Shown piece by piece: positions 16,701-40,428 of a DNA stretch of 64,000 nucleotides. The stretch lies in assembly GCA_964593375.1 (NCBI GenBank), contig CAZQIF010000001.1:6405-70404 (forward strand). The letters are read 5' to 3'. Both the position numbers and the translations under genes were made by a program. The notes beneath the pieces were generated by a model. The model ran no database searches. It saw nothing but the letters and a program-made list of their open reading frames with translations, and was not told where the DNA came from. This DNA comes from an uncultured Candidatus Saccharibacteria bacterium. GTDB taxonomy: Bacteria; Patescibacteriota; Minisyncoccia; Phycocordibacterales; UBA918. Position 1 is the stretch's first letter; the number at the start of each line of letters is the position of its first letter.

Positions 16701-18242
16701 ATGGCCAAGATTCCATCAGCTGTTGCTGAATCGCATCTGTCACATCTTCTCGGGCGCTATTTGCACCGTTTCCACCAAGGCAAGGTTCGGGATTCATACC
16801 TGCTTCCGGATTACGACGACCTCATGCTCGTTGTTGCAACCAATCGCTGCAGTATTTTTGACTTTGTCCTCAACACCACCATTCCGCACAAAGGAGCAAT
16901 CCTCACGGCAATGAATGTGTTTGGAACGAAGTACATCGTCGGCGACCTTTGCCCAACCGACTTAGTTGCCTGTGGAAGCGACATTGTGCGGTATCTCCCA
17001 CGAGAACTTCGGGGAAATATCGAACTGCAAATGACAGGAACGGTTGCGCGGAAGTTCATACCGCCGACGGTTGAGGATGTGGTGCGTAACGCAATAACGG
17101 GAAGTGGCTACAAGAGTTACTGCAAGGATGGCACCATTTGTGGTCACCGTCTTCCACCTGGACTTCAGAATGGTAACTTACTTCCGTATCTGCTCTACAC
17201 ACCAACAACAAAAGCATCTGTTGGTCATGATGAGCCGATTACCGCTGATAGCGTAGGTCTGCAATTTGGACCAGCACGGGAGCGACTCAGTTTGCAACTC
17301 ACTGCGCTTGCCGTACGTCATGCACTTTCGCGCGGTCTCATTCTCGCTGATACAAAGGAAGAGCTCAGTTACTTCGTGAATAAGAACGAAGAGCGCGAGT
17401 GGGTACTCGTCGACGAACGTTTTACGCTTGACTCGTCGCGTATCTGGGACAAACGTGCGTGGGAAATGGCGCAACGCGAAGGAAAGTTGCCACCATCGTT
17501 CGATAAGCAGTATGTGCGTGGCTGGGGCGAAGACAATGGCATCAATGGGACGCTCAATCCCGAAGATGAAGAAGTTCTCGCTCGTGTTCACGCACAAGTT
17601 GTCCCCGATGATGTGGTTCTGGCCTCCACAAAGCTATTTCGCTACGGTTTCTGGCGGTGGACTGGTCAGAAGCTGGAGAATTTTCAGCGAATTGAAATGG
17701 GAATTGACGTTCATGTTCCAAGGCCGAGTGTGCATGTAATCGTGGGGAGCAATAGCGATTTCTTGCAAATTGAGCACGGCATCTCGCACTTTGAATCACA
17801 TGGAATTGAGCACAAGGTGCACGTCATCAGTTGCCACCGCAACCGCGACGAGTTGGCGAATTATGTTGCTGACATTGCACAGCACCAAGAAGGTCGTCCT
17901 GACCGCATCATCGCTGGGGCCGGTATGGCTGCAGCACTCCCTGGAGTGCTTAAAGCTGAGCTCTGCAACTTTGGCCTCAAGGAGATTCCGGTCATTGGTG
18001 TTGCATTTCAAGGAAAGTCTGACACAGACAATCTCGCTGCACAGCTGTCTATCGAGCGCCTTCCTGAAGAGCCTGTTGAGCTCGACAAGGCCGGCAATGC
18101 GTACTTTGGCTCTGAAGGGTTCATGAGAGCATGTGACTCAGCGATACACGATGAATTTCTCACTCGTGGATATACGCACAAACCAGCACAGTTCAACGCT
18201 GACATTCGTCCATATCTTGCTGAAAGGGGTGTTCTCTCCTAA
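16701..18242 (+). CDS. bifunctional SAICAR synthetase (PurC-like, N-terminal) / AIR carboxylase-N5-CAIR mutase (PurE-like, C-terminal) fusion protein
   Basis: N-terminal GKVRDSYLLPDYDDLMLVVATNRCSIFDFVL matches the SAICAR synthetase signature. C-terminal VHVIVGSNSDFLQIEHG...ISCHRNRDEL...IIAGAGMAAALPGVLKAELCNFGLKEIPVIGVAFQ matches PurE. The gene is markedly GC-richer than its neighbours. Confidence 0.85.
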   Translation: MAKIPSAVAESHLSHLLGRYLHRFHQGKVRDSYLLPDYDDLMLVVATNRCSIFDFVLNTTIPHKGAILTAMNVFGTKYIVGDLCPTDLVACGSDIVRYLPRELRGNIELQMTGTVARKFIPPTVEDVVRNAITGSGYKSYCKDGTICGHRLPPGLQNGNLLPYLLYTPTTKASVGHDEPITADSVGLQFGPARERLSLQLTALAVRHALSRGLILADTKEELSYFVNKNEEREWVLVDERFTLDSSRIWDKRAWEMAQREGKLPPSFDKQYVRGWGEDNGINGTLNPEDEEVLARVHAQVVPDDVVLASTKLFRYGFWRWTGQKLENFQRIEMGIDVHVPRPSVHVIVGSNSDFLQIEHGISHFESHGIEHKVHVISCHRNRDELANYVADIAQHQEGRPDRIIAGAGMAAALPGVLKAELCNFGLKEIPVIGVAFQGKSDTDNLAAQLSIERLPEEPVELDKAGNAYFGSEGFMRACDSAIHDEFLTRGYTHKPAQFNADIRPYLAERGVLS

Positions 18243-22482: not shown

Positions 22483-22932
22483 GTGTACACCAATGTTAAG
22501 ATTTTATCGATGGATATGTACAAAAAAGATTTTGATAAGTGGAACAGTGAAAAGAAACTAATAAACGAAAACCATAGAAAGGTTTTTGGTTACCCTCGTG
22601 AAGTATGGTGGTGTTCACTTGGTGTCAATGTAGGGTCTGAAATAGACGGAAAGAACGAAAATTTTGAACGCCCTGTTATTATCCTTCGTGTATACAACAA
22701 GGAAACCATGCTTGTACTGCCAACTACCGGTAAAGTTCAGGATAACAAATTCCATTTACCAATTGAGATTGAGACATACAACCCAGAGACTAAAAATACA
22801 TACAACAAGACCGTGTATGTAAAATTGACACAAGCTCGTGTGATAAGTAACAAACGATTGCTACGTAAAGTTGATGTGATTAACGAAAATGAGTTTGAGA
22901 AGATACGGGATGCGTTCAAATCATTCACCTAA
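22483..22932 (+). CDS. type II toxin-antitoxin system PemK/MazF-family toxin-like protein (solitary; no adjacent antitoxin ORF)
   Basis: The core ..GYPREVWWCSLGVNVGSEIDGKNENFERPVIILRV...MLVLPTTGK...VKLTQARVISNKRL follows the MazF/PemK fold pattern. The ORF-track start is GTG 22483 and the first ATG is 22510. Confidence 0.7.
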   Translation: MYTNVKILSMDMYKKDFDKWNSEKKLINENHRKVFGYPREVWWCSLGVNVGSEIDGKNENFERPVIILRVYNKETMLVLPTTGKVQDNKFHLPIEIETYNPETKNTYNKTVYVKLTQARVISNKRLLRKVDVINENEFEKIRDAFKSFT

Positions 22933-22937
22933 ATACA

Positions 22938-22968
22938 TCGATACCCCACATTACTGTGGGGTATCTCG
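22938..22968 (+). terminator. hairpin (GATACCCCAC-attact-GTGGGGTATC) after the toxin gene
   Basis: 10-bp perfect stem with a weak T-run. Confidence 0.45.
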
Positions 22969-23128
22969 GAGGCCGAAGCCCTAATGCATATATAATACCT
23001 GATTGAAAATTTTACGCAAGGATGAATAGTATATTCACTTTTCAAAAACTGCGTTCAGTGAAAGAATCGTACAATTCTATCAACACCCGGACCTTTACCC
23101 TCTTTGGACAGGAGTATACTGAAAGTAT

Positions 23129-24565
23129 ATGAAAAAAGAGATACCCCTAGGTCAAAGTAGGGAAGTGGTAGAAGAGATGGCAGAAAAAATTGAGCAGACG
23201 CTCAACGCGTTTGATGTACCCATCAAAGTAGTAAAAGCAATTGAAGGGCTACACAGCTATCACTTTCACCTCAAAACATTAAAGCCGGTACGAATGAAAG
23301 CGATTGAATCATTCGAACAAGATCTTCGGTATGCACTCGGTTCAAGCAAAGTTGAGATACAGGCACCAATACCTGATGAGGTGCTCATCGGTATCAGTGT
23401 GCCTAAAAGTGATTCAATTCCAATGCTACTGTGGAGTGATGCTGTAGAAGCAGAAGAATTTGCTGATTCCGGCTACCTCGTTGTTCCGCTCGGGCAGGAT
23501 GAATTTGGCGAAGAAGTTAATCTCAAGATTCCACGACTTCCACACGTACTCATTGGTGGTGCAACTGGTTCTGGTAAGACTGTTCTTCTCTATTCCATCA
23601 TCAATTCGCTTATGTTGAAGCATAGTCCTGATGAAGTCCGTTTTATTTTTGCTGATCCAAAACGGTGGAGTCTCGTTCAATACAATGGTATACCACACCT
23701 CCTTACGCCGGTTATTACTGACGCAAAGCGTGTGATTCTCGCACTCAAACATTGTATTAAAGAAATGGAACGAAGACTTGATATTTTTCTGGAAAACAGA
23801 ATTCTAAATATTTCTTCGTACCATACAAGTATCTACCAACCCGCTATTGAGAAATTTAAAAAGAGAGGTTCACGAGAAGATGAACGCGATGATCTCCCAG
23901 AACCGCTCCCGTACATTGTTATAGTGCTTGATGAGCTTTCTGATTTGATGGCGGCATACCCAAAAGAACTTGAAGCGTGCATTGTACGATTAGCACAAAA
24001 AAGCCGTACTGTTGGGATACATCTCATACTGAGTACACAACGTCCATCAGTGAATGTCGTAACCGGTCTCATGAAGGCAAATATTCCAACACGTATTGCG
24101 TTTCAAGTAACTTCCTCAATTGACTCACGTACTATTCTTGATCAATCAGGGGCGGAAAAATTGCTTGGCAATGGTGACATGCTCTACATAAACGCAGAAA
24201 TGTTACAACCAGCACGAATACAGGGATACTATATTTCTGATGAGGAAATGTTGAAAAACATAGAATTAATTAGAATGAAATACGACATGCCAGAACTTGA
24301 TTCTATACAATTCAGTAATAATAACTCTACAAATGGAGCATTTTTCAGTAATGATGAAGAAGATGAAGATGATGACCTGTACGAAGATGTAAAAGCGGTT
24401 GTAGTTGAAACAGGGAAGGCATCAACTTCATTTTTGCAACGAAAATTTGGTATCGGATATTCTCGCTCAGCAAAACTCATCGATTTACTCGAGGAGCGTG
24501 GTGTGATCGGCCCCAGCAATGGTTCAGAGCCACGAAAGGTACTTATTCCAAAGGAGGAAGACTAA
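23129..24565 (+). CDS. FtsK/SpoIIIE-family DNA translocase, soluble form (no N-terminal membrane domain) with a C-terminal gamma winged-helix domain
   Basis: Walker A GGATGSGKTV, Walker B IVIVLDELSDL, gamma domain SFLQRKFGIGYSRSAKLIDLLEERGVIG. No TM segments are apparent in the first 130 aa. Confidence 0.85.
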   Translation: MKKEIPLGQSREVVEEMAEKIEQTLNAFDVPIKVVKAIEGLHSYHFHLKTLKPVRMKAIESFEQDLRYALGSSKVEIQAPIPDEVLIGISVPKSDSIPMLLWSDAVEAEEFADSGYLVVPLGQDEFGEEVNLKIPRLPHVLIGGATGSGKTVLLYSIINSLMLKHSPDEVRFIFADPKRWSLVQYNGIPHLLTPVITDAKRVILALKHCIKEMERRLDIFLENRILNISSYHTSIYQPAIEKFKKRGSREDERDDLPEPLPYIVIVLDELSDLMAAYPKELEACIVRLAQKSRTVGIHLILSTQRPSVNVVTGLMKANIPTRIAFQVTSSIDSRTILDQSGAEKLLGNGDMLYINAEMLQPARIQGYYISDEEMLKNIELIRMKYDMPELDSIQFSNNNSTNGAFFSNDEEDEDDDLYEDVKAVVVETGKASTSFLQRKFGIGYSRSAKLIDLLEERGVIGPSNGSEPRKVLIPKEED

Positions 24566-24576
24566 CATCACGTACC

Positions 24577-24948
24577 ATGCAACCACTCGATGAAATACAT
24601 AATCCCGAACTACTTGAAATAATTGAAATTATTTCAATGGTGTACGAAAAATTTGAAATGCCAATCGAAGTTGAGGGAGTTTCTGAAGAAGATTTGCTAT
24701 ATGTCGTTCACTGTCTCGAATTAAATCATGCAAAAATCGATAAGGTAGATAAGTTACCTTCAACAATAGAATACACACTCAATAGAAAACCTGTCACCAT
24801 CAATCGACTATCCGAAGAACCAGACGACTACCGCTTTGAGATTCGTGTTCCTATGAAGTATGAAGAACCTGAAACGGCAATGGTTAAGGAAGAAAAGGAC
24901 AGTATCTTTATAATTTTCAATCCACTTGAATCGCCTGGTTTTGCTTAG
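24577..24948 (+). CDS. hypothetical protein (123 aa, acidic)
   Basis: ORF directly after the FtsK-like gene with no recognisable family. Confidence 0.55.
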   Translation: MQPLDEIHNPELLEIIEIISMVYEKFEMPIEVEGVSEEDLLYVVHCLELNHAKIDKVDKLPSTIEYTLNRKPVTINRLSEEPDDYRFEIRVPMKYEEPETAMVKEEKDSIFIIFNPLESPGFA

Positions 24949-25104
24949 TGATTTGAAGCAAACGCTTCTAAAACAGCCCGCGCCTTCGACGCGGGTGAAG
25001 GCAAAAAGTGAATTGAGTAAACCTACCTTAAATGCTACGATTTGCTATGTCACTTACAATACAATCGACATCCAGTTACGTCATGAAATCAAATAAGCGA
25101 AGCT

Positions 25105-27891
25105 ATGAGAATAAACTTTTCTGAAGTACAACGTAATGTCTCCGAGATTGCTAATCGCCAACAGTATACAATCAATGTGCTATATGAACTGATGGCTGCT
25201 TATGGTCGCTCTGCTTCATCAATCACGAAGCTTAGAAACGGAGTCAATAATCTCGCCGCTGACAAAAATACTACTGTTCTCCAACGCGGTGTAGTTTATT
25301 TTAAAGTCATTCAAAATACCGGCAGTTTGCCAGCTCAAGTCGAAAAACTAGAACAAGACCCTTTAACACAGCGCTACAACCCACGCTTTTTAATTGCGAC
25401 TGACTTAAAAAACTTTGCAGCAAAAGACACGAAGAAAGGAAACACACTTGAAATTGACTGGACTAACATAGACAGAAATGTTGATTTTTTTTATGGCTGG
25501 ACCGGAGACGAGGTTACTAGCGAAAAGACCGAAGCCGTTGCTGACCGCAGAGCTGCAGATAAAATGAAGGAGCTATACCAAGAAGTCGAGAAGGTCAATG
25601 CAAGCAAGTTCAAAAAAACCGGAAAGGATTTTCGTCACAATCTCAATGTATTTTTCACACGCCTGCTTTTCTGCTTCTTTGCTGAAGATACCGGGGTTTT
25701 TGCAAAAGAAGAGAGAGGAGTTTTTACAAGTGCAATACGTGATTATACGCAGATAGACGGTTCGGACTTAGATCAATTCCTCGGGACACTTTTCGAGTCA
25801 CTTGATGAAGAAGATAAAAGTATCTTCACTAGTCCATTTTCTAAGTTCCCATATGTAAATGGAAGATTGTTCGATAAGACTTATGGAATAGAAATTCCAA
25901 AATTTAATGCGCAGTCACGGCATCTTATTCTTGAATGCGGTGCACTTAGTTGGGCCCAAATCAATCCAGACATATTTGGTTCGATGTTCCAGAGTATTGT
26001 TGATGAGGAACATCGCGCTACTCACGGGATGCACTACACAAGCGTGCCAAATATTATGAAGACTATAGAGCCCCTATTCCTAGATGAACTCCGTGATGAA
26101 TTTGATAAATATTATGATGACCCAAAAAAGTTACAAAAACTGCATGAAAGGATATCAAAGATAAAAATATTTGATCCAGCTTGTGGCTCAGGAAATTTTT
26201 TAATCATTGCTTATAAGGAACTCAGAAAACTAGAACATGCCATTATTGAGCGTCTGTTTGAAGATGAATACATTGCCAATCAGCTTAAGAATAAGCTGCA
26301 ATCAAGTATTGACCTGAATAATTTCTACGGAATTGAGATAGATGATTTTGCGTGTGAGGTTGCTGTACTTTCGCTTTACTTGACTAAACATCAAATGAAC
26401 TTGGAGTTTGAAAAGCAGTTTGGTAGGGAAATCAAACTCATCCCACTTGTAGATAAGGCCAATGTTATTCACGGGAATGCAACCAGACTCGATTGGCAAG
26501 AAGTTTGCCCAAACGTCCCAACAAAGAAAAGTATGATTACTGAGCTGCAAGGACAGCTAATTGTGACTGAAGAAAATACCAATCACCTTCTGATGGAGAA
26601 TGAATGGGATGAAATATATCTCATTAGTAATCCTCCGTACTTGGGTCAACCTAATCAAGAAGATTCGCATAAAGCGGACATGGATTTTGTATTTGGGGGG
26701 TTACAGGGTAAGTTTAAGAAACTTGACTATGTCGGGTGTTGGTTTTTTAAGGGTACAGAATACATATCCAATACAAAAGCAAAATTAGCATTCATATCAA
26801 CTAACTCCATTTTTCAAGGTGTTCAAGTTGAGCAACTTTGGCCAAAATTATTCAGTCATAATATCGAGATTCAGTTTGCTTTTTCTCCTTTCAGGTGGAC
26901 TAACAACGCAAGAGATAATGCGGGTGTGTATGTGACTGTGGTCTCCTTAAGAGTGAGAGGAAAGTCAGATAAGTATTTGTTTATTGATGGAATCAAGTTG
27001 AAAGCGCGGAACATTAACGCATACTTGATTGATGCAGATAACATAATCGTAGGCAAGACAAAGCATTCGATTTCAAGCCTACATCCAGTGCTAGGGGGGT
27101 GCCAGCCACGTGAGGGTGGGCATCTCATGCTGTCCGATAAAGAGAAGCATGAGTTGTTAAAAAGATCTCCAGAAGCAAATAGATTCATCAAACCGATGAT
27201 TGGCACAAATGAACTAATTAAGGGAACTCGGAAGTGGTGCATTTGGATAGAAGATTCAGAACTAGATGAAGCTTTCAAGATTAAGGAAATCAAGGAAAGA
27301 GTAAACTCTGTCCGAGCGCATAGAATCTCTGGAAATTCAGTTGAGCGAACATTTGCTAACGTTCCTCATAGGTTTGTTACAATCAAACGCCCAATGGCGC
27401 ATCAAATTGTAATTCCTAACTTAACACCCATTGATAAACCTTATCTTCCATTAGGATACTTAAATAGAGAGTACATTGTAAATAAGCAAGCATATTGCAT
27501 ATTTGACTCTGGTTTGGAATATTTTGCACTTTTAATATCAAAAACTCACATGAAATGGCTCGAAGTAGTTTGCGGTAGATTGGGCAACGCAATAAGCTAT
27601 TCTGCACATATTGGATATAATACTTTCCCGGTAAAGAATATGGATGAAAGTGAAGTTAATAAGCTAAGAGCTTCGGCCAGGGAAATATTATTTACACGAC
27701 AAAATCATTCAGAAATGAGTTTGGGAGAGCTGTACTCTACAACCACCATGCCAGATGATTTGCGTGAGGCGCATCATCAAAATGACTTACTGGTAGACAA
27801 GTTATATCGACAAAAACCGTATGCTAATGATGAAGAACGACTGACTGACTTGTTTAAATTGTATGAAGAAATGATAACTAAAGAGAAATAA
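25105..27891 (+). CDS. MmeI-family Type IIL-like restriction-modification protein (N-terminal nuclease-like domain, gamma-class N6-adenine DNA methyltransferase, C-terminal target-recognition domain)
   Basis: There are long collinear matches to MmeI: RLLFCFFAEDT, FPYVNGRLF, IFGSMFQSIVD, HYTSVPNIMKTIEPLFLDEL, FDPACGSGNFLIIAYKELRKLE (motif I), FYGIEIDDF, HQMN, NPPY (motif IV), FISTNSIFQGVQVEQLWP, FAFSPFRWTNNA, AYLID, RKWCIWI, YNTFP. The upstream segment PRFLIATDLKNF parallels MmeI PRYVLVCDFQRF. Confidence 0.9.
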   Translation: MRINFSEVQRNVSEIANRQQYTINVLYELMAAYGRSASSITKLRNGVNNLAADKNTTVLQRGVVYFKVIQNTGSLPAQVEKLEQDPLTQRYNPRFLIATDLKNFAAKDTKKGNTLEIDWTNIDRNVDFFYGWTGDEVTSEKTEAVADRRAADKMKELYQEVEKVNASKFKKTGKDFRHNLNVFFTRLLFCFFAEDTGVFAKEERGVFTSAIRDYTQIDGSDLDQFLGTLFESLDEEDKSIFTSPFSKFPYVNGRLFDKTYGIEIPKFNAQSRHLILECGALSWAQINPDIFGSMFQSIVDEEHRATHGMHYTSVPNIMKTIEPLFLDELRDEFDKYYDDPKKLQKLHERISKIKIFDPACGSGNFLIIAYKELRKLEHAIIERLFEDEYIANQLKNKLQSSIDLNNFYGIEIDDFACEVAVLSLYLTKHQMNLEFEKQFGREIKLIPLVDKANVIHGNATRLDWQEVCPNVPTKKSMITELQGQLIVTEENTNHLLMENEWDEIYLISNPPYLGQPNQEDSHKADMDFVFGGLQGKFKKLDYVGCWFFKGTEYISNTKAKLAFISTNSIFQGVQVEQLWPKLFSHNIEIQFAFSPFRWTNNARDNAGVYVTVVSLRVRGKSDKYLFIDGIKLKARNINAYLIDADNIIVGKTKHSISSLHPVLGGCQPREGGHLMLSDKEKHELLKRSPEANRFIKPMIGTNELIKGTRKWCIWIEDSELDEAFKIKEIKERVNSVRAHRISGNSVERTFANVPHRFVTIKRPMAHQIVIPNLTPIDKPYLPLGYLNREYIVNKQAYCIFDSGLEYFALLISKTHMKWLEVVCGRLGNAISYSAHIGYNTFPVKNMDESEVNKLRASAREILFTRQNHSEMSLGELYSTTTMPDDLREAHHQNDLLVDKLYRQKPYANDEERLTDLFKLYEEMITKEK

Positions 27892-27892
27892 T

Positions 27893-29851
27893 ATGAACAA
27901 GGAAACAATAAACATAATAGAAAATGAGTATGAGCAGACGGGTGCAAGTAAGCGTCAGAATGAATTTGGCATGCGTGAGATGCAAGTGCGAGCCTATGAA
28001 AAACGTAATAGTAATCATTTACTGATTAAAGCTCCACCTGCATCTGGTAAATCTCGGGCACTAATGTTTATTGCCTTGGACAAACTACACAATCAAGGTA
28101 AGAAGAAAGTAATTGTGGCGGTACCCGAAACTTCAATTGGTGCTTCATTTTCTAGTATCAAACTTACAGAAAACGGTTTCTATGCTGACTGGGTTGTAGA
28201 ACCGATGAATAATCTATGTGCAGGTACTTGTGATGATAAAAGTAAAGTTAAGGCTTTTGTTAGATTCATGAATGGTGAAGATCGAATACTTGTTTGTACT
28301 CACGCAACACTTCGCTTTGCTTTTGAGGAGATACCATCCAAAGATTTCAATGACTGCGTATTGGCAATTGATGAATTCCACCATGTCTCAACGAGTGATT
28401 CGAGTCGGCTAGGAGAATTGGTCAGAAATGTGATGCGTGATTCTAATGTTCAAATGATTGCAATGACCGGGTCATACTTTCGAGGTGATGCTGTGCCCAT
28501 ACTTCGTGCAGAGGATGAAATGAATTTTGATAAAGTCACTTACACTTACTACGAACAACTTAACGGGTATGAGTACTTGAAAACCCTGGGCATAGGTTAT
28601 CACTTCTATACCGGAAACTACCTCGATAAAGGCGCGCTCGATAGTGTGCTAGATACAACAAAGAAGACCATCATTCATATTCCAAATGTGAATTCAAAAG
28701 AGTCAACACAGATTGGTAAGGATGAAGAGGTGCAACATATCTACGGTATCATTGGTGAATGGATCGAACAGGATTCCGATACTGGTATAGAAATTTTAGA
28801 AACAGAAGATGGTAGAAAATTGAAGATCGCAAATCTTGTGGAGGATGAACCAATTCATAGAAGCAAGTTAGACAAATATCTAGCTGACGTGGCTCGAGAT
28901 AGTATCGATGGCGTAGACATTATCATCGCACTTGGTAAGGCAAAAGAAGGATTTGATTGGCCATTTTGTGAACAAGCACTCACCATCGGGTATCGAGCAA
29001 GTCTAACTGAAATCGTACAAATAATAGGTCGTTGCACGAGAGATAGCTACAACAAAAACCACGCACAGTTCACAAATTTAATCGTTCAACCAAATGGAAC
29101 ACAGGATGATGTACAGGTATCGGTCAATAACATGCTCAAGGCGATTACCGCTTCTTTACTCATGGAGCAGGTCCTCGCCCCTAACTTTACTTTCAAACCA
29201 AGGACATCCCCACGAGATAAAACTTCTGCAGGGGAGGTGTTTGTCAAAGGACTCAGACAACCAACGAATGAGAAGGTGAAAAGAATACTGGAAACCGAGT
29301 TGGAAGATTTAACTGCTGCTGTTCTGCAAGACACACAATATCAAAGGTCCGTAGCAGCAGACCATTCTCCTGAGTATCGCAAGCACTTGCAATCAAAAAT
29401 AATTCGAGAAAAACTGCCTGGTCTCACTGACGAGGAAGTGGAGACAACAAGACAGTATCTCGCTAGCAACCTGGCGTTTAAAACCGGAAAGATAACTGCA
29501 GATGGAGATAAGAAATTTATTACCATGGCAAATAGTTTCGTTAATCTTGATGATTTGACCATTGACTTGATTGATTCTGTGAACCCATTCCAGCATGCGT
29601 TTGAGGTTATTTCTAAAAAAGTAGGTGCTGATGTATTCAGGGTCATTCAGGATACGATTGCTGGTTCACGTATAGATATGTCAGACGAGGATGCACTTGT
29701 GCTCGTTCCTCAAATAGAGTCGTTTGTCGTCACTCACAATGGTCAACACCCAAAACTGAATTCAAACGACAAGAATGAGAAGTTACTAGCACAGGCAAAA
29801 GCGTATCTCACTGCTAGATATTCTCAAATCATGAGGGATAAGCAAAAATAA
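27893..29851 (+). CDS. SF2 helicase-family ATPase (DExH box), 652 aa
   Basis: Motif I APPASGKS, Ia VAVPETS, II DEFHH, III MTGS, VI QIIGRCTRD. The start codon lies 1 bp after the stop of the methyltransferase gene. Confidence 0.85.
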   Translation: MNKETINIIENEYEQTGASKRQNEFGMREMQVRAYEKRNSNHLLIKAPPASGKSRALMFIALDKLHNQGKKKVIVAVPETSIGASFSSIKLTENGFYADWVVEPMNNLCAGTCDDKSKVKAFVRFMNGEDRILVCTHATLRFAFEEIPSKDFNDCVLAIDEFHHVSTSDSSRLGELVRNVMRDSNVQMIAMTGSYFRGDAVPILRAEDEMNFDKVTYTYYEQLNGYEYLKTLGIGYHFYTGNYLDKGALDSVLDTTKKTIIHIPNVNSKESTQIGKDEEVQHIYGIIGEWIEQDSDTGIEILETEDGRKLKIANLVEDEPIHRSKLDKYLADVARDSIDGVDIIIALGKAKEGFDWPFCEQALTIGYRASLTEIVQIIGRCTRDSYNKNHAQFTNLIVQPNGTQDDVQVSVNNMLKAITASLLMEQVLAPNFTFKPRTSPRDKTSAGEVFVKGLRQPTNEKVKRILETELEDLTAAVLQDTQYQRSVAADHSPEYRKHLQSKIIREKLPGLTDEEVETTRQYLASNLAFKTGKITADGDKKFITMANSFVNLDDLTIDLIDSVNPFQHAFEVISKKVGADVFRVIQDTIAGSRIDMSDEDALVLVPQIESFVVTHNGQHPKLNSNDKNEKLLAQAKAYLTARYSQIMRDKQK

Positions 29852-29854
29852 TTC

Positions 29855-31021
29855 ATGTCTGACAAAGATTTTACAAAAGAATTACGCGAACTTTTTGAAT
29901 CAGAAGCCGGCGCCTTATTTATCCCGAAGGAGACACCCAGGAAACTTACTGTAGATGATAGATTAGCTGAGTCCTTCCAACAGATAATAAATTTTGTACA
30001 AGAAAATGATTGTAAACCAGAAATTGATTCACTAGACTTCAATGAGGCACTGCTATCAAAACGACTTGAATTGATAAAACATACACCAGAAAAAGTTCAA
30101 GCCTTAGAACAATATGATTCTTTAGGGTTGTTGGTACAGCCTGAAACACCAAAGAGTATTGAAGAGTTATTTGAAAAAGATGAGTTTGGACTTTTTAAAG
30201 GTGATGAGAACAAAATCTTCAACATTGAACACATCAAACAAAGGAAGGTTGTAAATCCAGTGGGAGAAAGAGCCACAAGGATTAAATCGGAAGACTTTGC
30301 TGAATTTGAAATAATCTTTAAAGATGCTCAGGAAAAGCTAAAGAGTGGAGATAATAAGCTCTTCGCATTTAAATCCGTCGAACAACTTCACGTAGGACAT
30401 CTTTATATTAACAGTGGACAAATGGTCTATGTTGCAAGTGAGGGTCAGATAGATGAAAAGGCTGGCTATAAGCAGCAGAGACTACGAGTGATTATTGAGA
30501 ATGGCACTGAATCGAACATGTATAGACGCTCCCTCGCTCAACGATTATATGAAGGTGGATATTGTGTAGTTGGTAACGAAGAATTATCTAGTGGTCTTCC
30601 TGATGAATCGGAAAAGATTAAAGGGTACATTTATGTCGTACGTTCTTTGAGTGAAAATTCAAAAATAAATACAATTGCAAATCTCTACAAAATTGGTTTT
30701 TCCAGAACACCGGTTTCTCAAAGAATTGCTAATGCAAAAATCGATCCTACCTACCTGATGTCTGAAGTGGATCTGGTTGAGAGTTACAGATTAACAGGAG
30801 ATTACAACCCACAAAAAGTAGAGGATATGATTCATAGGGTATTTTCAGATGTTGCCCTCGATATGAAGATAATTGATAACCAAGGTCGAGAGTATAAACC
30901 AAAGGAGTGGTATTCAGTACCAATTCATATTATTCGCGAAGTAGTTGATCTTATAGATTCTGGTGAGATTGTGAATTATGTTTATGATTCAAACCAGCAA
31001 AAGATGGAACTGGTAAAATAA
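29855..31021 (+). CDS. T5orf172 (MUG113/GIY-YIG-like) domain-containing protein, 388 aa
   Basis: C-terminal GYIYVVRSLSENSKINTIANLYKIGFSRTPVSQRIANAKIDP...EDMIHRVF...EWYSVPIHII fits the T5orf172 pattern (G.IYV....KIG.T.....R......EWF). The N-terminal 250 aa are unassigned. The start lies 3 bp after the helicase stop. Confidence 0.75.
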   Translation: MSDKDFTKELRELFESEAGALFIPKETPRKLTVDDRLAESFQQIINFVQENDCKPEIDSLDFNEALLSKRLELIKHTPEKVQALEQYDSLGLLVQPETPKSIEELFEKDEFGLFKGDENKIFNIEHIKQRKVVNPVGERATRIKSEDFAEFEIIFKDAQEKLKSGDNKLFAFKSVEQLHVGHLYINSGQMVYVASEGQIDEKAGYKQQRLRVIIENGTESNMYRRSLAQRLYEGGYCVVGNEELSSGLPDESEKIKGYIYVVRSLSENSKINTIANLYKIGFSRTPVSQRIANAKIDPTYLMSEVDLVESYRLTGDYNPQKVEDMIHRVFSDVALDMKIIDNQGREYKPKEWYSVPIHIIREVVDLIDSGEIVNYVYDSNQQKMELVK

Positions 31022-31190: not shown

Positions 31191-32507
31191 TCATTTAACT
31201 TTTTTTAGTTTGTGAAAATCTACGAGTGTCTTTCCGAGTCTGTCAATGACACCTACAACAAGAGCGTTTCCCATGAAGAAAGCTCTCCGCGCGTCGCCAT
31301 GTCCTTGTGTGTGATTGTCAGGGAACATGCACAGTCTTTCTAGTTCAAGTGGTGTGAGGCGTCGAAGACCTTTCTTAGTCTGAACCACATGTTTAAACCG
31401 TGATGGACTCTTTCCACCTTCTCCAGTAATTATAGTCCGAGAGGGTTTATCAAGTGGGTCAGGGAAGACCATACCTCCTTCTGTGTATATGAACTCAAAA
31501 CCATTTGCCGCCTTTCTTGGTTCATTCTTCGCTCCTTTTAAATACTCCCAACGTTTTAAATCATTCTCTGAAATATAGAAATCATCAGGAACATCCGTTT
31601 CATCTAACAAAATATCGCCGATTGTGATTGAGGACCCTTCATATTTTGGTTGTACCTTTACAGTGTGAATTTTGTAATCAAAAGCAATACCTGCGTTTTT
31701 AAATGGTGAATGATTAGGTTTGTAGGTTTCAAAATCATTAGAGATGATTACTGGGTCTGTGTGAAGATGTCTTGTTTGAACCTCAGAAGCAAATTCAACA
31801 GGAAAAGCTTTTGCAGTTAATCCTTTATCATGTAACCATGACTCGATAGAATTGTGAGCGACAAATTTCTCATGTATTGGAGAACCTTTCTTATATCCAA
31901 GTATAAAAATGCGCCTTCTTCTTTGTGGTAATCCATACTCAGCAGCGTTAATAACTCTCCACTCCACTACATACCCAAGTTCATTTAGAGTTGAAAGGAT
32001 AATTGCGAAATCACGACCGCGCTGTGAGGCTGGGGACTTAAGGAGACGGTCAACATTTTCCAACATAAGGTAGTTGGGTGATTTATCTCCCTTTTTTTTA
32101 AGAATATTATATATAGACCACCAAAGAACACCCTTCTTTCCTTCGAGTCCTTTAGCGGCAGAAAGATTTCTCGCAACAGAATAGTCCTGGCAAGGGAATC
32201 CACCAACAAGTAAATCGTGATCAGGAACCATATCAATGACCCGAGCGATATCCTTATTGGTATATTCATCAAAGTCACCAAAATTTCTCACATAAGTTTC
32301 ATGTGCATGCTGCTTCTTTGTTGAAGGTTCCCACTGATTGAACCAAATGGTTTCGTAGTGCTTGTGATGAGGCTTTCTGTTTCCCTTGTACCCCTCGAGC
32401 CCAAGTCGGAATCCCCCGACACCCGCAAATAATTCAACAACTTTCAAACTATCTGTTTTAGATTTTCTATTGATCTTTTTTTGATTTGTGGTGTTATTTT
32501 GTGTCAT
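31191..32507 (-). CDS. DNA (cytosine-5)-methyltransferase
   Basis: Motif I ELFAGVGGFRLGLEG, motif IV GGFPCQDYS, ENV (LMLENV), QRR (YGLPQRRRRIF). Confidence 0.9.
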   Translation of the reverse strand: MTQNNTTNQKKINRKSKTDSLKVVELFAGVGGFRLGLEGYKGNRKPHHKHYETIWFNQWEPSTKKQHAHETYVRNFGDFDEYTNKDIARVIDMVPDHDLLVGGFPCQDYSVARNLSAAKGLEGKKGVLWWSIYNILKKKGDKSPNYLMLENVDRLLKSPASQRGRDFAIILSTLNELGYVVEWRVINAAEYGLPQRRRRIFILGYKKGSPIHEKFVAHNSIESWLHDKGLTAKAFPVEFASEVQTRHLHTDPVIISNDFETYKPNHSPFKNAGIAFDYKIHTVKVQPKYEGSSITIGDILLDETDVPDDFYISENDLKRWEYLKGAKNEPRKAANGFEFIYTEGGMVFPDPLDKPSRTIITGEGGKSPSRFKHVVQTKKGLRRLTPLELERLCMFPDNHTQGHGDARRAFFMGNALVVGVIDRLGKTLVDFHKLKKVK

Positions 32508-32569
32508 TTAGTGCTAGCATTCTAACATGTGAGTTAAAAGTGATCAATCACTTACACCAACACACCACA

Positions 32570-33376
32570 ATGAACGCAAAAGATCAAGATAATGGTAATT
32601 TAAGTCTTGAATTAACGAGCAAACTTGCTGTAAATCTTGATGAACTCAAAACCAACGTCAGTGGTGTAAGAAGAATTGAAAGAGCAAAAGAGGCAATATC
32701 GTGGTCTTCTGGTTTAGCTTTAGAAAATCAACATTTTCATGAGATTTGGAAAGATAATAATGGTTTTTATTCTGTAAAAATGGCAAAGCCGGGTAAGGAG
32801 TTTTTTGAAACTGCAATCAGATATAAGGACGGTCACCGTGACAACAATCCAAATGATATGAGGCCGACGCTTTTTGTCGGTGCTGTACAGCAATCAAATT
32901 ATGCTACCTTCCAGGAAGTGTTTCATGAGCTCCAAATAACTTGGCGAAAAAGTGAATTTGCTGCTGAATTACTTGCTTGTCTTTTGTTTAGGTCTGCATT
33001 TATGGTTGATCATACAAAAAATAAATTTGGGGAAGAGGGCTACTGGAGATATGTCCCAAATCAAGATGTCGTTTCAATTCTCGAGTCAGAACTCAATTCA
33101 ATGCATGGCATCTCCTGTCTAGCTTTTTTGCATTATCTTGATGCTATAGGTTTAAATGAGGATGTGAAATATCTGACACTGGGTTACCCAATTCAACAAG
33201 GATACGGTAGACGTAACAACCTTCTTACTTATGTAAATATTCTCTCTATGTTTCTTGAGAGGGAGACTTTTGGAGCAGTGGCTGGTGCGTTTTCAAGACC
33301 CCCAGCTGGAGTTGCACCGATATCTCAAAGTAAAGCGATACAATTTTTCCCGTGGCTTTCAAGTGTTCCTCGCTAG
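32570..33376 (+). CDS. hypothetical protein, divergent from the C5-methyltransferase gene; candidate cognate Type II restriction endonuclease (positional inference only)
   Basis: The ORF track starts at TTG 32486 and overlaps the methyltransferase start. The first ATG (32570) gives a 63-bp divergent spacer. No recognisable motifs. The C-terminal 40 aa are low complexity. Confidence 0.4.
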   Translation: MNAKDQDNGNLSLELTSKLAVNLDELKTNVSGVRRIERAKEAISWSSGLALENQHFHEIWKDNNGFYSVKMAKPGKEFFETAIRYKDGHRDNNPNDMRPTLFVGAVQQSNYATFQEVFHELQITWRKSEFAAELLACLLFRSAFMVDHTKNKFGEEGYWRYVPNQDVVSILESELNSMHGISCLAFLHYLDAIGLNEDVKYLTLGYPIQQGYGRRNNLLTYVNILSMFLERETFGAVAGAFSRPPAGVAPISQSKAIQFFPWLSSVPR

Positions 33377-33435: not shown

Positions 33436-34632
33436 ATGAATCAAATAATATGTCCACATTGTAAAAAGACTTTCACAATCGATGATGAGGGTTTCGCTAA
33501 TATCTTAGTGCAGGTACGTAACCAAGAGTTTGAGAAAGAGTTACATGAGCGTCTTGAGTTACTAGAGAAAGATAAAGAAAGTGCGATCAAATTATCAGAA
33601 GCAAGTTTAAAGAACCAACTACAAAGTGATTTAGCAATCAAAGATGCTGAGTTGGCGGAGTTGAAATCAAAAGTAAGTAACATTGAACTTGAGAAAAAAC
33701 TTGCCGTAACTGAAGCAGTGACTGCAATTGAAAAGGAGCGCGATGCTCTTTCATCTAAACTTCAAAACAAGGAGCATGAAAGTAAAATTCTTGAAGCCTC
33801 ACTGAAAGATAAATATGAAAGTGAACTGAAATTCAAGGATGAGACGATTGATCGCCTCAAAGATATGAAGTTGAAACTCAGCACAAAGATGGTTGGCGAG
33901 ACACTGGAACAACACTGTGAAACTGAATTTAATAAATTACGCGCCACAGGTTTCAAAAATGCTTATTTTGAAAAAGATAATGATTCAAAAACTGGTAGCA
34001 AAGGTGACTATATTTATCGCGAAGACGATGATTCAGGCAATGAGATTATCTCAATAATGTTTGAAATGAAAAATGAAAGTGATGAGACTACTACCAAGAA
34101 AAAGAATGAGGACTTTTTACGCGAACTTGATAAAGACCGTATTGAAAAGAAATGCGAGTTCGCTGTTCTTGTTTCGCTTTTAGAGTTAGACAGCGAACTA
34201 TACAACACCGGAATTGTCGATGTATTTCACAAGTATCCAAAAATGTATGTCGTTCGTCCACAATTTTTCATTCCAATCATAACCTTGTTACGCAACGCTG
34301 CCTTGAGTTCTCTTGAATACAAAGCAGAGCTTGCAGTAGTTCGAGCACAAAATATTGATATCACGAACTTCGAAGAAAATATGGAGGAGTTTAAAAGTGC
34401 ATTTGGTAAGAATTATGAACTATGGGGTCGAAAGTTTGGCGAAGCAATTGAAGGCATCGATAAGACAATTACTCAGCTAGAGAAAACAAAAGCTGCACTT
34501 CTTTCTTCAGAGAATAATCTTCGACTAGCAAATGGTAAAGCCCAAGACCTTACCATTAAAAAATTGACCCGAGGTAATCCTACAATGAAAGTAAAGTTTG
34601 AGGAGCTTTCAGATACTAAAAAGCCACTGTAA
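33436..34632 (+). CDS. DUF2130-like protein (N-terminal CxxC zinc ribbon, long coiled coil, conserved C-terminal domain)
   Basis: [13 protein letters not shown]..., then about 150 aa of coiled coil, then the C-terminal region ..[27 protein letters not shown].. typical of the family. The family name is recalled from memory. Confidence 0.65.
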
Positions 34633-34634
34633 AA

Positions 34635-35006
34635 ATGAAAGCAAATAATAAAAGTATTTTAGGTCTACTAAACAGAGCAAAAATTTATGGCCTCCCAGAG
34701 GAAAAATTAAGGGAAATTTTACTGAGAGATAAAAACTGTATTTTTTGCGGTATAAAAATGAAGACTCACGTATCCTCTATTGGAACACCACGAGATAAAA
34801 AGACAATTGAGCATTTTAGTAATAAAGCTGAATGGGGAGAAGCGGTTGATGTCGGTATTTGTTGTGGTAGCTGCAATTCGAGTAAAAGTAATAAAAAAAT
34901 ATTTGATTGGTTTAAAACTAAATATTGCCTAGAACGAAATATCAATGAAAGAACAGTGGCAGAGCCAGTCAAAGATTATATTAAGAACAATAGTAAAAAG
35001 AGTTAA
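34635..35006 (+). CDS. HNH endonuclease family protein (small)
   Basis: CIFCGIKM...KTIEHFSNKAEWGEAVDVGICCGSCNSSK gives the CxxC...H...CxxC HNH/zinc-finger arrangement. The start lies 3 bp after the DUF2130 stop. Confidence 0.7.
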   Translation: MKANNKSILGLLNRAKIYGLPEEKLREILLRDKNCIFCGIKMKTHVSSIGTPRDKKTIEHFSNKAEWGEAVDVGICCGSCNSSKSNKKIFDWFKTKYCLERNINERTVAEPVKDYIKNNSKKS

Positions 35007-40371: not shown

Positions 40372-40428
40372 CAAACTCTCTAAGAGACCGTAGAGAGTTT
40401 GACTTTGGTGTTGATATATAATAATTCA

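What the first reader, a model, noticed from the sequence alone, without database searches (positions are those of the whole stretch)
25105..31021. Three-gene operon of an MmeI-family RM protein, a DExH helicase and a T5orf172/GIY-YIG-like protein: candidate undescribed translocating RM-like defence system
The three genes are packed with 1-bp and 3-bp gaps, so they almost certainly form one operon.
- Gene 1 is collinear with the Type IIL enzyme MmeI over its whole length: nuclease-like N-terminus, gamma-class N6-adenine methyltransferase with DPACGSGNFL and NPPY, and a C-terminal TRD.
- Gene 2 is an SF2 helicase (GKS, DEFH, QxxGRxxR).
- Gene 3 carries a C-terminal T5orf172 (GIY-YIG clan) domain behind a 250-aa unassigned N-terminal region.

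MmeI-type enzymes normally act as single polypeptides. The only known helicase-coupled relatives are the single-chain Type ISP enzymes (nuclease + helicase + MTase + TRD in one protein) and the BREX/DISARM systems. The diagnostic partners of those systems (PglZ, BrxC, DrmB/DUF1998) are absent here. The arrangement therefore looks like a split, Type ISP-like translocating RM system, or a new helicase-dependent defence module, with the T5orf172 protein as a possible second nuclease.
Basis: partly seen in the sequence, partly recalled or inferred. Interest (0 to 1): 0.85.

Follow-up and report, generated by a model that had tools for sequence, protein, structure and literature searches.

The report
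Known YeeA–YeeB–YeeC restriction-like gene triad
The three genes are a real and intact operon, but they are another copy of the already described dnmA(yeeA)-yeeB-yeeC cluster (an MmeI-like methyltransferase without its nuclease motif, a helicase and a GIY-YIG-type nuclease), so this is a new member of a known, still mechanistically unsolved, restriction-like defence family.

Summary
Observation confirmed. Three intact co-directional ORFs (25105-27891, 27893-29851, 29855-31021) lie 1 bp and 3 bp apart and carry the stated domains and motifs.

The claim that the system is undescribed is wrong. Morgan et al. 2009 defined this class: MmeI homologs lacking the PD-ExK nuclease motif, "invariably" followed by a DEAD helicase (YeeB) and a GIY-YIG-like protein (YeeC).

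All defining features are met here:
- Gene 1 aligns to MmeI only from residue 87 and has no counterpart of D70/E80/K82.
- Gene 2 is 57% identical to B. subtilis YeeB.
- Gene 3 is 34% identical to B. subtilis YeeC.

Synteny holds in 23/23 and 28/28 informative loci across many phyla, and on plasmids.

Published tests disagree. Inactivating yeeAB made Vibrio crassostreae phage-sensitive, while the B. subtilis copy gives no defence. The window's proteins are full length with invariant catalytic motifs.

The most likely function is an ATP-dependent, Type I/ISP-like restriction-modification system. YeeA would supply specificity and single-strand m6A, YeeB the motor and YeeC the nuclease. This mechanism is inferred, not shown.

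My additions: target-recognition domain swapping on a co-evolving chassis, defence cargo inserted at the gene 1-helicase junction, and a Patescibacteria host.

Verdict: new member of a known kind, modest interest.

The parts
25105..27891 (+). Gene 1: YeeA/DnmA-class MmeI homolog (928 aa). Predicted specificity and N6-adenine methyltransferase subunit, without the PD-ExK nuclease motif.
   Evidence: All five MmeI Pfam domains hit. PADLOC REase_MTase_IIG scores 5.8e-265. The PDB MmeI chain 5HR4 matches at 4.9e-143, but only from residue 87.
25105..25614 (+). Gene 1 N-terminal domain (aa 1-170). A degenerate MmeI_N-type domain lacking counterparts of MmeI D70/E80/K82. Proposed docking platform for YeeB/YeeC.
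   Evidence: This stretch alone finds no MmeI match. No conserved D...ExK appears in 31 homologs. Its divergence tracks that of the helicase (Pearson 0.95).
26104..26982 (+). Gene 1 gamma-class N6-adenine methyltransferase domain (aa 334-626). Motif I FDPACGSGNFL lies at nt 26170-26202 and motif IV NPPY at nt 26629-26640.
   Evidence: Pfam MmeI_Mtase scores 4e-98. In the 31-sequence family alignment DPACGSGNFL is invariant, its leading F is not, and NPP of NPPY is invariant or at least 90% conserved.
27034..27639 (+). Gene 1 target recognition domain (aa 644-845), the hypervariable specificity module.
   Evidence: Pfam MmeI_TRD scores 3.5e-62. It is only 28-48% identical in relatives whose helicase is 82-88% identical. 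It is uncoupled from helicase divergence (Pearson 0.29).
27893..29851 (+). Gene 2: YeeB-type SF2 helicase/translocase (652 aa). Motif I PPASGKS lies at nt 28034-28054, motif II DEFHH at 28370-28384, motif III MTGSYFRGD at 28463-28489 and motif VI QIIGRCTRD at 29018-29044.
   Evidence: Pfam DEAD and ResIII hit. It is 57% identical to B. subtilis YeeB and 50% to V. crassostreae YeeB. DEFHH and MTGSYFRGD are invariant in 33 sequences, and PPASGKS and QIIGRCTRD are invariant or at least 90% conserved apart from C381.
29855..31021 (+). Gene 3: YeeC-type protein (388 aa). It has a helical N-terminal module, a beta-rich middle module and a C-terminal T5orf172 (GIY-YIG clan) domain.
   Evidence: Pfam T5orf172/MUG113 hit. 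It is 34% identical to B. subtilis YeeC and 32% to V. crassostreae YeeC. The AlphaFold2 model has pLDDT 76.
30623..30955 (+). Gene 3 T5orf172 domain (aa 257-367). Conserved core residues are G257, Y260, K279-I-G281, R290, E323, H327 and E351-W352.

Best explanation
The locus is a complete, apparently functional member of the YeeA(DnmA)-YeeB-YeeC three-gene family. This is the branch of the MmeI family in which the N-terminal PD-ExK nuclease has been lost and replaced in trans by a helicase subunit and a GIY-YIG/T5orf172 subunit.

Proposed mechanism, mostly inferred and following Morgan 2009:
1. YeeA binds a short asymmetric site through its target recognition domain. It methylates one adenine on one strand of host DNA.
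2. On unmodified sites, its non-catalytic N-terminal domain recruits or activates YeeB.
3. YeeB uses ATP to move along DNA away from the site.
4. The T5orf172 domain of YeeC cuts the DNA at a distance. This may need two converging complexes from head-to-head sites, as in Type ISP and Type III enzymes. Such a requirement would solve the problem of protecting freshly replicated DNA that is modified on one strand only.

Shown here: the domain content, the loss of the nuclease motif, intact catalytic motifs in all three proteins, tight conserved synteny and orthology to YeeB/YeeC.

Shown by others:
- DnmA is a site-specific single-strand m6A methyltransferase.
- YeeA alone has no endonuclease activity.
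- Inactivating yeeAB sensitises Vibrio crassostreae to some phages.

Not shown by anyone: complex formation, translocation and cleavage by YeeC.
For: Family membership:
- Gene 1 is MmeI-like throughout but lacks the catalytic region.
- Gene 2 is 57% identical to B. subtilis YeeB and 50% to Vibrio YeeB. Gene 3 is 34% and 32% identical to the two YeeC proteins (sequences transcribed from Fig. S5 of PMC9973331).
- The class definition and proposed mechanism are in PMC2731913.

One functional unit:
- The gaps are 1 bp and 3 bp.
- Gene 1 is upstream in 23/23 informative loci and gene 3 downstream in 28/28, spanning Patescibacteria, Proteobacteria, Bacteroidota, Campylobacterota, Actinomycetota and others.
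- The same triad is annotated on S. aureus and Synechococcus plasmids.
- A context search anchored on gene 3 gave one full triad and one truncated relic that still keeps the helicase 3' half next to YeeC.
- No other neighbour of the window's triad recurs elsewhere.

Likely active:
- Methyltransferase, helicase and T5orf172 core motifs are invariant.
- YeeB and YeeC keep the C-terminal tails that are present in the defence-active Vibrio proteins and missing in B. subtilis.

Restriction-modification-like evolution:
- The target recognition domain is swapped on a conserved chassis.
- The N-terminal domain of gene 1 co-varies most tightly with the helicase.
- The gene 1-helicase junction collects defence cargo.

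Other support:
- A defence phenotype is reported in V. crassostreae.
- A T5orf172 domain acts as a nuclease in ICP1 Gp88/Odn.
Against: - The only copy studied in detail, in B. subtilis, restricts neither three tested phages nor plasmid transformation. Its recognition motif is not depleted in phage genomes.
- The Vibrio evidence is a knock-out phenotype for yeeA/yeeB without biochemistry.
- No enzyme activity has been shown for any YeeB or YeeC.
- YeeB has no specific sequence affinity to known restriction motors. The profile search of PDB finds only RIG-I-like helicases at E about 1e-3, so dsDNA translocation is an assumption.
- The helicase model was poor, with pLDDT 60.
- Expression and activity in this uncultured host are unknown.
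Confidence: 0.7

Rival explanations
1. Relic system. As proposed for B. subtilis, the locus could be a defunct restriction-modification remnant. Only the methyltransferase would matter, as an orphan epigenetic regulator, and yeeB/yeeC would be inactive passengers.
For: - B. subtilis dnmA-yeeB-yeeC gives no phage or plasmid restriction, and DnmA modulates gene expression.
- A DnmA-like orphan methyltransferase is reported in S. mutans.
- Decayed copies exist: the L046/L047 relic, in-frame stops in L015 and helicase fragments on Acinetobacter plasmids.
Against: - All three window ORFs are intact and full length, with invariant catalytic motifs.
- They retain the C-terminal segments that the B. 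subtilis proteins lack.
- The helicase is 76-88% identical across distant hosts, which indicates strong purifying selection and recent transfer.
- Diversification of the target recognition domain is what is expected of a system under selection for changing specificity.
Confidence: 0.15
2. Ordinary single-chain Type IIG/IIL enzyme. Gene 1 alone would be the restriction-modification system, as PADLOC's REase_MTase_IIG model would label it. The helicase and T5orf172 genes would be unrelated neighbours.
For: - The full-length PADLOC REase_MTase_IIG hit scores 5.8e-265.
- All five MmeI Pfam domains are present.
Against: - The catalytic D70/E80/K82 region has no counterpart.
- YeeA-class proteins expressed alone showed no endonuclease activity.
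- The neighbours are conserved in 23/23 and 28/28 loci.
Confidence: 0.03
3. Methylation-marked defence that does not work by classical restriction. For example, it could act as a BREX-like replication block, or as an abortive-infection effector in which YeeB/YeeC sense phage DNA or replication intermediates and YeeA only marks self.
For: - The DnmA motif is not avoided by Bacillus phages. The authors note that any defence must then differ from canonical restriction-modification.
- The YeeB profile is nearest to RIG-I-like sensor helicases rather than restriction motors, though weakly.
- YeeC has two unassigned modules, one of them SH3/Tudor-like at low confidence.
Against: - No BREX or DISARM partner genes are present.
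- A conserved GIY-YIG-type core argues for DNA cutting.
- Swapping of the target recognition domain is the hallmark of sequence-specific restriction-modification.
Confidence: 0.12

Closest known systems
B. subtilis DnmA(YeeA)-YeeB-YeeC and V. crassostreae YeeA-YeeB-YeeC (the class of MmeI homologs lacking PD-ExK; Morgan 2009, Nye 2020, Fernandez 2023, Piel 2021/22)
   Same: - Same three genes in the same order.
- MmeI-like methyltransferase and target recognition domain without the nuclease motif.
- YeeB ortholog (57% and 50% identity) and YeeC ortholog (34% and 32% identity).
- Located in a low-GC island.
   Different: - Different host phylum (Patescibacteria).
- Different target recognition domain, hence presumably a different recognition site.
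- YeeB and YeeC are full length like the Vibrio proteins, unlike the C-terminally shorter B. subtilis proteins.
MmeI / Type IIL single-chain restriction-modification enzymes
   Same: Helical spacer, gamma-class N6-adenine methyltransferase, target recognition domain and C-terminal bundle are collinear and strongly similar (E 4.9e-143). Modification is probably single-strand.
   Different: - No catalytic D70/E80/K82 equivalent.
- Conserved helicase and GIY-YIG partners, whereas MmeI-type genes have no consistent neighbours.
- Presumably ATP-dependent.
Type ISP enzymes (LlaGI, LlaBIII)
   Same: Both combine an MmeI-related gamma-methyltransferase and target recognition domain, an SF2 motor and a nuclease. 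Both have asymmetric sites with one methylated strand. The translocation-collision logic is a plausible model.
   Different: - Type ISP is a single polypeptide ordered nuclease-helicase-methyltransferase-TRD with an Mrr/PD-(D/E)xK nuclease.
- Here there are three proteins ordered methyltransferase/TRD, helicase, GIY-YIG-type nuclease.
- The YeeB profile finds no ISP, HsdR or Res chain in the PDB at E <= 0.1.
Type I restriction-modification systems (HsdM/HsdS/HsdR)
   Same: - Separate modification/specificity and motor functions.
- Swapping of the target recognition domain.
- The operon junction accumulates embedded defence cargo (AIPR, DUF1016, RhuM, Shedu and others).
   Different: - Specificity and methyltransferase are fused in one protein that recognises a continuous asymmetric site.
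- Motor and nuclease are separate proteins.
- The nuclease is of the GIY-YIG type rather than PD-(D/E)xK.
BREX (PglX) and DISARM (DrmMI) methyltransferases
   Same: Distant homology of the methyltransferase/TRD region (DrmMI 2.1e-25 partial; PglX about 1e-8).
   Different: - PglX NCBIfam scores are 15-41 bits against cut-offs of 400-900.
- No PglZ, BrxC, BrxL, DrmA, DrmB or DrmC nearby.

Membership tests
YeeA(DnmA)-YeeB-YeeC triad (MmeI homologs lacking PD-ExK; Morgan 2009) | Gene 1 is highly similar to MmeI beyond about the first 100 residues (spacer, gamma-methyltransferase, target recognition domain, C-terminal domain). | tested here: met
   Five MmeI Pfam domains hit. 5HR4 matches at E 4.9e-143, covering residues 87-468 and 505-924.
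YeeA(DnmA)-YeeB-YeeC triad (MmeI homologs lacking PD-ExK; Morgan 2009) | The N-terminal PD-ExK endonuclease motif is absent. | tested here: met
   - The alignment to MmeI starts after its D70/E80/K82 region.
- The N-terminal 170 aa alone find no MmeI match.
- No conserved D...ExK appears in 31 homologs.
- The loose D100/D108/K110 pattern is not invariant, and both Asp residues also occur in MmeI outside its active site.
YeeA(DnmA)-YeeB-YeeC triad (MmeI homologs lacking PD-ExK; Morgan 2009) | A YeeB-type DEAD/SF2 helicase gene lies immediately downstream. | tested here: met
   The gap is 1 bp. Gene 2 is 57% identical over 611 aa to B. subtilis YeeB and 50% to V. crassostreae YeeB (sequences transcribed from a machine-read supplement).
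YeeA(DnmA)-YeeB-YeeC triad (MmeI homologs lacking PD-ExK; Morgan 2009) | A YeeC-type GIY-YIG/T5orf172 gene follows. | tested here: met
   The gap is 3 bp. T5orf172/MUG113 hit. Gene 3 is 34% identical to B. subtilis YeeC (E 8e-53) and 32% to Vibrio YeeC (E 5e-46).
YeeA(DnmA)-YeeB-YeeC triad (MmeI homologs lacking PD-ExK; Morgan 2009) | The three genes co-occur as a conserved cluster across genomes. | tested here: met
   Gene 1 is upstream in 23/23 loci and gene 3 downstream in 28/28.
YeeA(DnmA)-YeeB-YeeC triad (MmeI homologs lacking PD-ExK; Morgan 2009) | Site-specific single-strand m6A methylation, and phage defence dependent on the partner genes. | not testable with these tools
   This needs methylome sequencing and plaque assays. 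The only published data are for B. subtilis (methylation yes, defence no) and V. crassostreae (defence yes).
Type IIL / MmeI-family single-chain restriction-modification enzyme | A catalytic PD-(D/E)xK endonuclease domain in the same polypeptide (MmeI D70, E80, K82). | tested here: not met
Type IIL / MmeI-family single-chain restriction-modification enzyme | The enzyme acts alone, with no consistently associated flanking genes. | tested here: not met
   The helicase and T5orf172 neighbours are conserved. The contrast between the two classes is stated in PMC2731913.
Type ISP restriction-modification enzyme | A single polypeptide ordered Mrr-type nuclease, SF2 translocase, gamma-methyltransferase, target recognition domain. 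| tested here: not met
   There are three separate ORFs in a different order. The nuclease candidate is T5orf172/GIY-YIG.
Type ISP restriction-modification enzyme | The motor domain is related to the LlaGI/LlaBIII translocase. | tested here: not met
   phmmer and a 22-sequence profile against all PDB chains return only Cas3 (E 0.015) and RIG-I-like helicases (E 1e-3). No ISP, HsdR or Res chain is found. Sequence-level test only.
BREX | A PglX methyltransferase passing the family cut-off, together with PglZ and BrxC/BrxL. | tested here: not met
   PglX models score 15-41 bits against cut-offs of 400-900. No PglZ or BrxC is found among the neighbours.
DISARM | DrmA helicase, DrmB (DUF1998) and DrmC, with DrmMI or DrmMII. 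| tested here: not met
   There is only a partial DrmMI-like hit in the TRD/methyltransferase region. Gene 2 does not hit DrmA or DrmD. No DUF1998 or PLD domain is found nearby.

The most novel reading that the evidence does not exclude
The YeeABC class, including this intact Patescibacteria copy, could be a mechanistically distinct, still unnamed type of ATP-dependent restriction-modification system. An ex-nuclease N-terminal domain of an MmeI-like methyltransferase/TRD subunit would have been repurposed as a docking platform. That platform would co-evolve with a dedicated SF2 motor of its own family and a GIY-YIG/T5orf172 nuclease. The result would be long-range cleavage that relies on single-strand methylation. 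It would be the first translocating restriction-modification enzyme armed with a GIY-YIG nuclease.
Probability: 0.5. Interest if true: 0.55.

Novelty: new member of a known kind. Interest (0 to 1): 0.3.

Why it matters
The family is widespread.

Yet it is absent as a system from PADLOC v2. PADLOC would label gene 1 as a self-sufficient Type IIG enzyme although it lacks the nuclease motif. No biochemistry exists for YeeB or YeeC.

A full-length, motif-intact copy such as this one is a reasonable candidate for reconstitution. Reconstitution could settle three things:
- whether the 2009 hypothesis of a Type I-like, single-strand-modifying, GIY-YIG-armed restriction-modification system is right;
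- why the B. subtilis copy is silent;
- how defence annotation pipelines should treat these loci.

For this scan the practical message is that the finding is real but already explained at the level of kind.

Tried and rejected
- **Hidden fourth component or known system just outside the finding.** Pfam, PADLOC and PHROG scans of all neighbours from about 20.9 to 41 kb, and tblastn of those neighbours against 41 related loci, found nothing that recurs with the triad. Rejected.
- **Relocated active site in the gene 1 N-domain (D100...D108-T-K110).** The pattern is semi-conserved, but K110 is C, L or A in 3 of 31 sequences. Both Asp residues also exist in MmeI outside its catalytic triad. YeeA alone is inactive in vitro. 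Rejected, weakly.
- **Structure of gene 2.** The model is poor (pLDDT 60, and the second RecA-like domain (RecA2) of the helicase core is disordered) because the available alignment was shallow (at least 76% identity).
- **Profile searches of YeeB and YeeC against PDB sequences.** No informative relatives were found.
- **Promoter and terminator scan.** Counts did not exceed the shuffled-sequence expectation, so nothing usable emerged beyond a GC-rich hairpin upstream of gene 1.
- **Exact look-up of the window helicase.** No contig is on record. Cluster look-up gave no names.
- **Apparent exception P0198, a YeeC homolog without YeeA or YeeB.** It turned out to be a truncated relic. The abutting 331-aa ORF is 81% identical to helicase residues 326-652.
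- **Literature searches for a newer name or mechanism.** Nothing was found beyond the papers cited.
- **Direct comparison of gene 1 with B. subtilis DnmA.** Not possible, because the supplement holds only fragments of that alignment.

Full report
**1. Observation**

The ORF list contains three co-directional ATG-initiated ORFs at exactly the stated coordinates:
- 25105-27891 (928 aa)
- 27893-29851 (652 aa)
- 29855-31021 (388 aa)

The junctions read TAA-t-ATG and TAA-ttc-ATG, so the gaps are 1 bp and 3 bp. A consensus scan finds no credible internal terminator or promoter above shuffled expectation.

Gene 1 matches all five Pfam domains of MmeI: MmeI_N 4e-14, MmeI_hel 6e-21, MmeI_Mtase 4e-98, MmeI_TRD 3.5e-62 and MmeI_C 3.2e-17. 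It matches the solved MmeI chain 5HR4 at E 4.9e-143.

Gene 2 matches DEAD and ResIII. Gene 3 matches T5orf172/MUG113 at residues 257-367, with nothing assigned to residues 1-250. All quoted motifs are present at the positions computed.

**2. One correction to the observation**

MmeI's catalytic residues are D70, E80 and K82 (PMC4833311).
- The pairwise alignment of gene 1 with MmeI begins only at residue 87, which equals MmeI residue 102.
- The first 170 residues alone find no MmeI chain.
- In a 31-sequence alignment of gene 1 relatives, residues 1-95 have almost no conserved column and no D...ExK.
- A loose D100/D108/K110 pattern is not invariant. Both Asp residues also occur in MmeI outside its active site.

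So the N-terminal domain is related to the MmeI N-domain family but has lost the nuclease centre.

**3. What it is**

A full-text search led directly to the B. subtilis dnmA(yeeA)-yeeB-yeeC cluster.

Morgan et al. 2009 (PMC2731913) split MmeI homologs into two sets.
- One set has the PD-ExK motif and no consistent neighbours.
[quoted passage not shown] These are a DEAD-family helicase (YeeB-like) and a protein with GIY-YIG motifs (YeeC-like).

They proposed that the MmeI-like subunit gives specificity and protective modification. Its altered N-terminal domain would interact with separate helicase and endonuclease subunits. YeeA and a Moraxella homolog expressed alone had no endonuclease activity.

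Later work:
- Fernandez 2023 showed conserved synteny, with the helicase at position +1 and T5orf172 at +2. They found no defence against three Bacillus phages.
- Piel et al. showed that inactivating yeeAB in Vibrio crassostreae restored sensitivity to one phage group.
- The Type ISP literature also alludes to related enzymes with associated helicase subunits and GIY-YIG nucleases.

**4. Membership tests run here**

(a) Gene 1 is MmeI-like but lacks PD-ExK. Met, as shown above.

(b) and (c) Orthology to YeeB and YeeC. I reconstructed the B. subtilis and V. crassostreae YeeB and YeeC sequences from the machine-read Fig. S5 of PMC9973331. The transcription is imperfect.
- Gene 2 is 57% identical to B. 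subtilis YeeB over 611 aa, and 50% identical to Vibrio YeeB over 681 aa.
- Gene 3 is 34% identical to B. subtilis YeeC (E 8e-53) and 32% to Vibrio YeeC (E 5e-46).
- The window's YeeB (652 aa) and YeeC (388 aa) extend through the C-terminal segments. Fernandez et al. noted that these segments are present in the defence-active Vibrio proteins and missing in B. subtilis.

(d) Conserved co-occurrence.
- A scan of one genome per species with the helicase returned 41 loci. They come from Patescibacteria, Thermodesulfobacteriota, Gamma-, Beta- and Alphaproteobacteria, Campylobacterota, Bacteroidota, Lentisphaerota, Actinomycetota and others.
- Every locus with a full helicase and at least 5.5 kb upstream has gene 1 on the same strand (23/23). 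Every locus with at least 1.3 kb downstream has gene 3 (28/28).
- The helicase family is on 265 plasmid records. S. aureus and Synechococcus plasmids are annotated 'DNA methyltransferase / DEAD/DEAH box helicase / GIY-YIG nuclease family protein'.
- Anchoring on gene 3 instead gave one full triad and one apparent exception. The exception is a relic: the abutting 331-aa ORF is 81% identical to helicase residues 326-652.
- None of the window's other neighbours recurs next to the triad, so it is a self-contained three-gene module.

BREX and DISARM are excluded. PglX models score 15-41 bits against cut-offs of 400-900. No PglZ, BrxC, DrmA, DrmB or DrmC lies nearby.

**5. Anatomy and evolution**

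Across 31-33 family members the methyltransferase motifs are conserved: DPACGSGNFL of motif I is invariant and NPP of NPPY is invariant or at least 90% conserved. DEFHH and MTGSYFRGD of the helicase are invariant, and PPASGKS and QIIGRCTRD are invariant or at least 90% conserved apart from C381. The T5orf172 core is G257, Y260, K279-I-G281, R290, E323, H327 and E351-W352; G257 and H327 are at least 90% conserved in that set and the rest invariant, and all are invariant in alignments A1 and A4.

Eight relatives have a helicase 82-88% identical to the window's. In these relatives:
- the gene 1 N-domain is 67-89% identical;
- the target recognition domain is only 28-48% identical.

Over all pairs, divergence of the N-domain tracks the helicase best. 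Pearson is 0.95, and Spearman is 0.81 even when the tight clade is excluded. The target recognition domain is uncoupled, with Pearson 0.29. This fits a specificity module that is swapped on a co-evolving chassis. It is compatible with, but does not prove, a docking role for the N-domain.

In 11 of 33 loci, 1-4.5 kb of unrelated genes sit between gene 1 and the helicase. These genes are AIPR, YhcG/DUF1016, Shedu SduA, RhuM, Bro-N, an AAA_21/SMC ATPase, Schlafen/AlbA_2, DUF3800 and SIR2_2. The Synechococcus plasmid carries toxin-antitoxin genes there. From my own knowledge, Type I restriction-modification operons accumulate similar embedded cargo.

**6. Structures**

The AlphaFold2 model of gene 3 (pLDDT 76, pTM 0.38) shows three modules:
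- a helical N-terminal module, about residues 33-107;
- a beta-rich middle module, about residues 142-240;
- the T5orf172 domain.

Foldseek against PDB gives no hit with E <= 0.001.

- SH3/Tudor-like barrels also match: FeoA and the Esa1 Tudor domain.

This is consistent with, but not proof of, a GIY-YIG fold plus a small barrel domain.

A T5orf172 domain with nuclease function has precedent in ICP1 Gp88/Odn. The helicase model was poor (pLDDT 60) and was not used. Sequence and profile searches of all PDB chains find no HsdR, Res or Type ISP motor. They find only Cas3 (E 0.015) and RIG-I-like helicases (E 1e-3). YeeC finds nothing. YeeB therefore belongs to its own SF2 family, and 'split Type ISP' is a functional analogy, not a relationship.

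**7. Mechanism**

The best-supported explanation, mostly inferred, is as follows.
1. YeeA recognises an asymmetric site and methylates one adenine.
2. On unmodified sites it engages YeeB through its non-catalytic N-domain.
3. YeeB translocates using ATP.
4. YeeC cuts at a distance, possibly after two complexes converge from head-to-head sites. That requirement would spare freshly replicated host DNA, which carries the mark on only one strand.

Rivals:
- A relic with an orphan methyltransferase, as argued for B. subtilis. The intact, full-length, motif-invariant genes here argue against it.
- A self-sufficient Type IIG enzyme. This is refuted by the missing catalytic motif and the conserved partners.
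- A methylation-marked but non-restricting defence. This is not excluded. It is hinted at by the lack of motif avoidance in Bacillus phages.

**8. Context**

The window is chromosomal, with leuS, typA, ychF, purC and RND efflux genes. It comes from a Patescibacteria/CPR bacterium: its TypA is 90% identical to Pacebacteria and Minisyncoccia proteins.

The triad lies in a low-GC stretch, 36-40% against 42-48% in the flanks, from about 22 to 41 kb. That stretch also holds:
- a MazF-like toxin;
- an FtsK-like ATPase;
- a C5-methyltransferase with a divergent ORF that has no family;
- DUF2130 plus an HNH-like ORF;
- a DUF3800 gene.

**9. Verdict**

This is a real operon and an intact new member of a family recognised since 2009. 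One homolog has a genetic defence phenotype and none has biochemistry. It is not a new kind of system. The interest lies in the unsolved mechanism of the family, not in this instance.

Noticed in passing
window 49234-52080: Leucyl-tRNA synthetase (948 aa) carries an internal NUDIX domain at aa 384-511 (Pfam 36.5 bits, above the cut-off). NCBIfam also gives an RppH-like match at aa 417-524. The insert lies directly after the editing domain, which is an unusual insertion for LeuS.
   Followed up: partly
window 16701-18242: A single ORF fuses a SAICAR synthetase (PurC, aa 24-279) with an AIR carboxylase/PurE-like domain (aa 344-456).
   Followed up: no
window 31191-33376: A C5-cytosine methyltransferase on the minus strand (31191-32507; PADLOC MTase_II 7.5e-161) sits next to a divergently oriented 296-aa ORF (32486-33376). 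That ORF has no Pfam, PADLOC or PHROG family. It is a candidate cognate Type II restriction endonuclease immediately downstream of the triad.
   Followed up: partly
window 22483-24948: Upstream of the triad lie a MazF/PemK-like toxin (22483-22932) and a 478-aa FtsK-like ATPase (23129-24565) with alpha, motor and gamma domains but no membrane part. The ATPase also hits the SspH and mad8 models in PADLOC. A 123-aa ORF without family follows (24577-24948). None of these recurs with the triad elsewhere.
   Followed up: partly
window 33436-35006 and 40399-41046: A DUF2130 protein (33436-34632) is followed, 2 bp later, by a small HNH-like ORF (34635-35006; PHROG HNH endonuclease 1.2e-08). A DUF3800 gene lies at the far end of the low-GC island.
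   Followed up: no
L013, L014, L015, L020, L023, L024, L030, L034, L038, L040, L041 (between gene 1 and helicase); L043:2812-3750: In about a third of related loci the gene 1-helicase junction holds 1-4.5 kb of unrelated defence-type cargo. The cargo includes AIPR, YhcG/DUF1016, Shedu SduA_C, RhuM, Bro-N, an AAA_21/SMC ATPase, Schlafen AlbA_2, DUF3800, SIR2_2 and toxin-antitoxin genes. The triad's internal junction therefore behaves as an insertion hotspot.
   Followed up: partly
L046:6006-8158 and L047 (same arrangement): A decayed triad. Only the 3' half of the helicase (81% identical to window residues 326-652) and the YeeC-like gene survive. They sit in an island with a STAND NTPase, a GmrSD-type gene, a resolvase and Rep/FtsK genes.
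   Followed up: yes
L015:6001-9079; Acinetobacter plasmids (hits H15-H22): Further signs of decay. The Sulfurovum MAG copy has an in-frame stop in both the helicase and the YeeC-like gene. Many A. baumannii plasmids carry only a 5' fragment of the helicase, with 24% coverage at 64% identity.
   Followed up: no
window 27893-29851 and its homologs: The helicase is unusually conserved across hosts. The best 120 database clusters are all 76-88% identical and come from Patescibacteria, Thermodesulfobacteriota and Gammaproteobacteria MAGs. Gene 1 and gene 3 in the same loci are only 55-75% identical. This suggests recent horizontal spread of one clade.
   Followed up: partly
window 24977-24995: A GC-rich 8-bp-stem hairpin (CCCGCGTCGAAGGCGCGGG) lies in the 156-bp spacer between ORF 24577-24948 and gene 1. 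It scores as terminator-like only on the minus strand.
   Followed up: no
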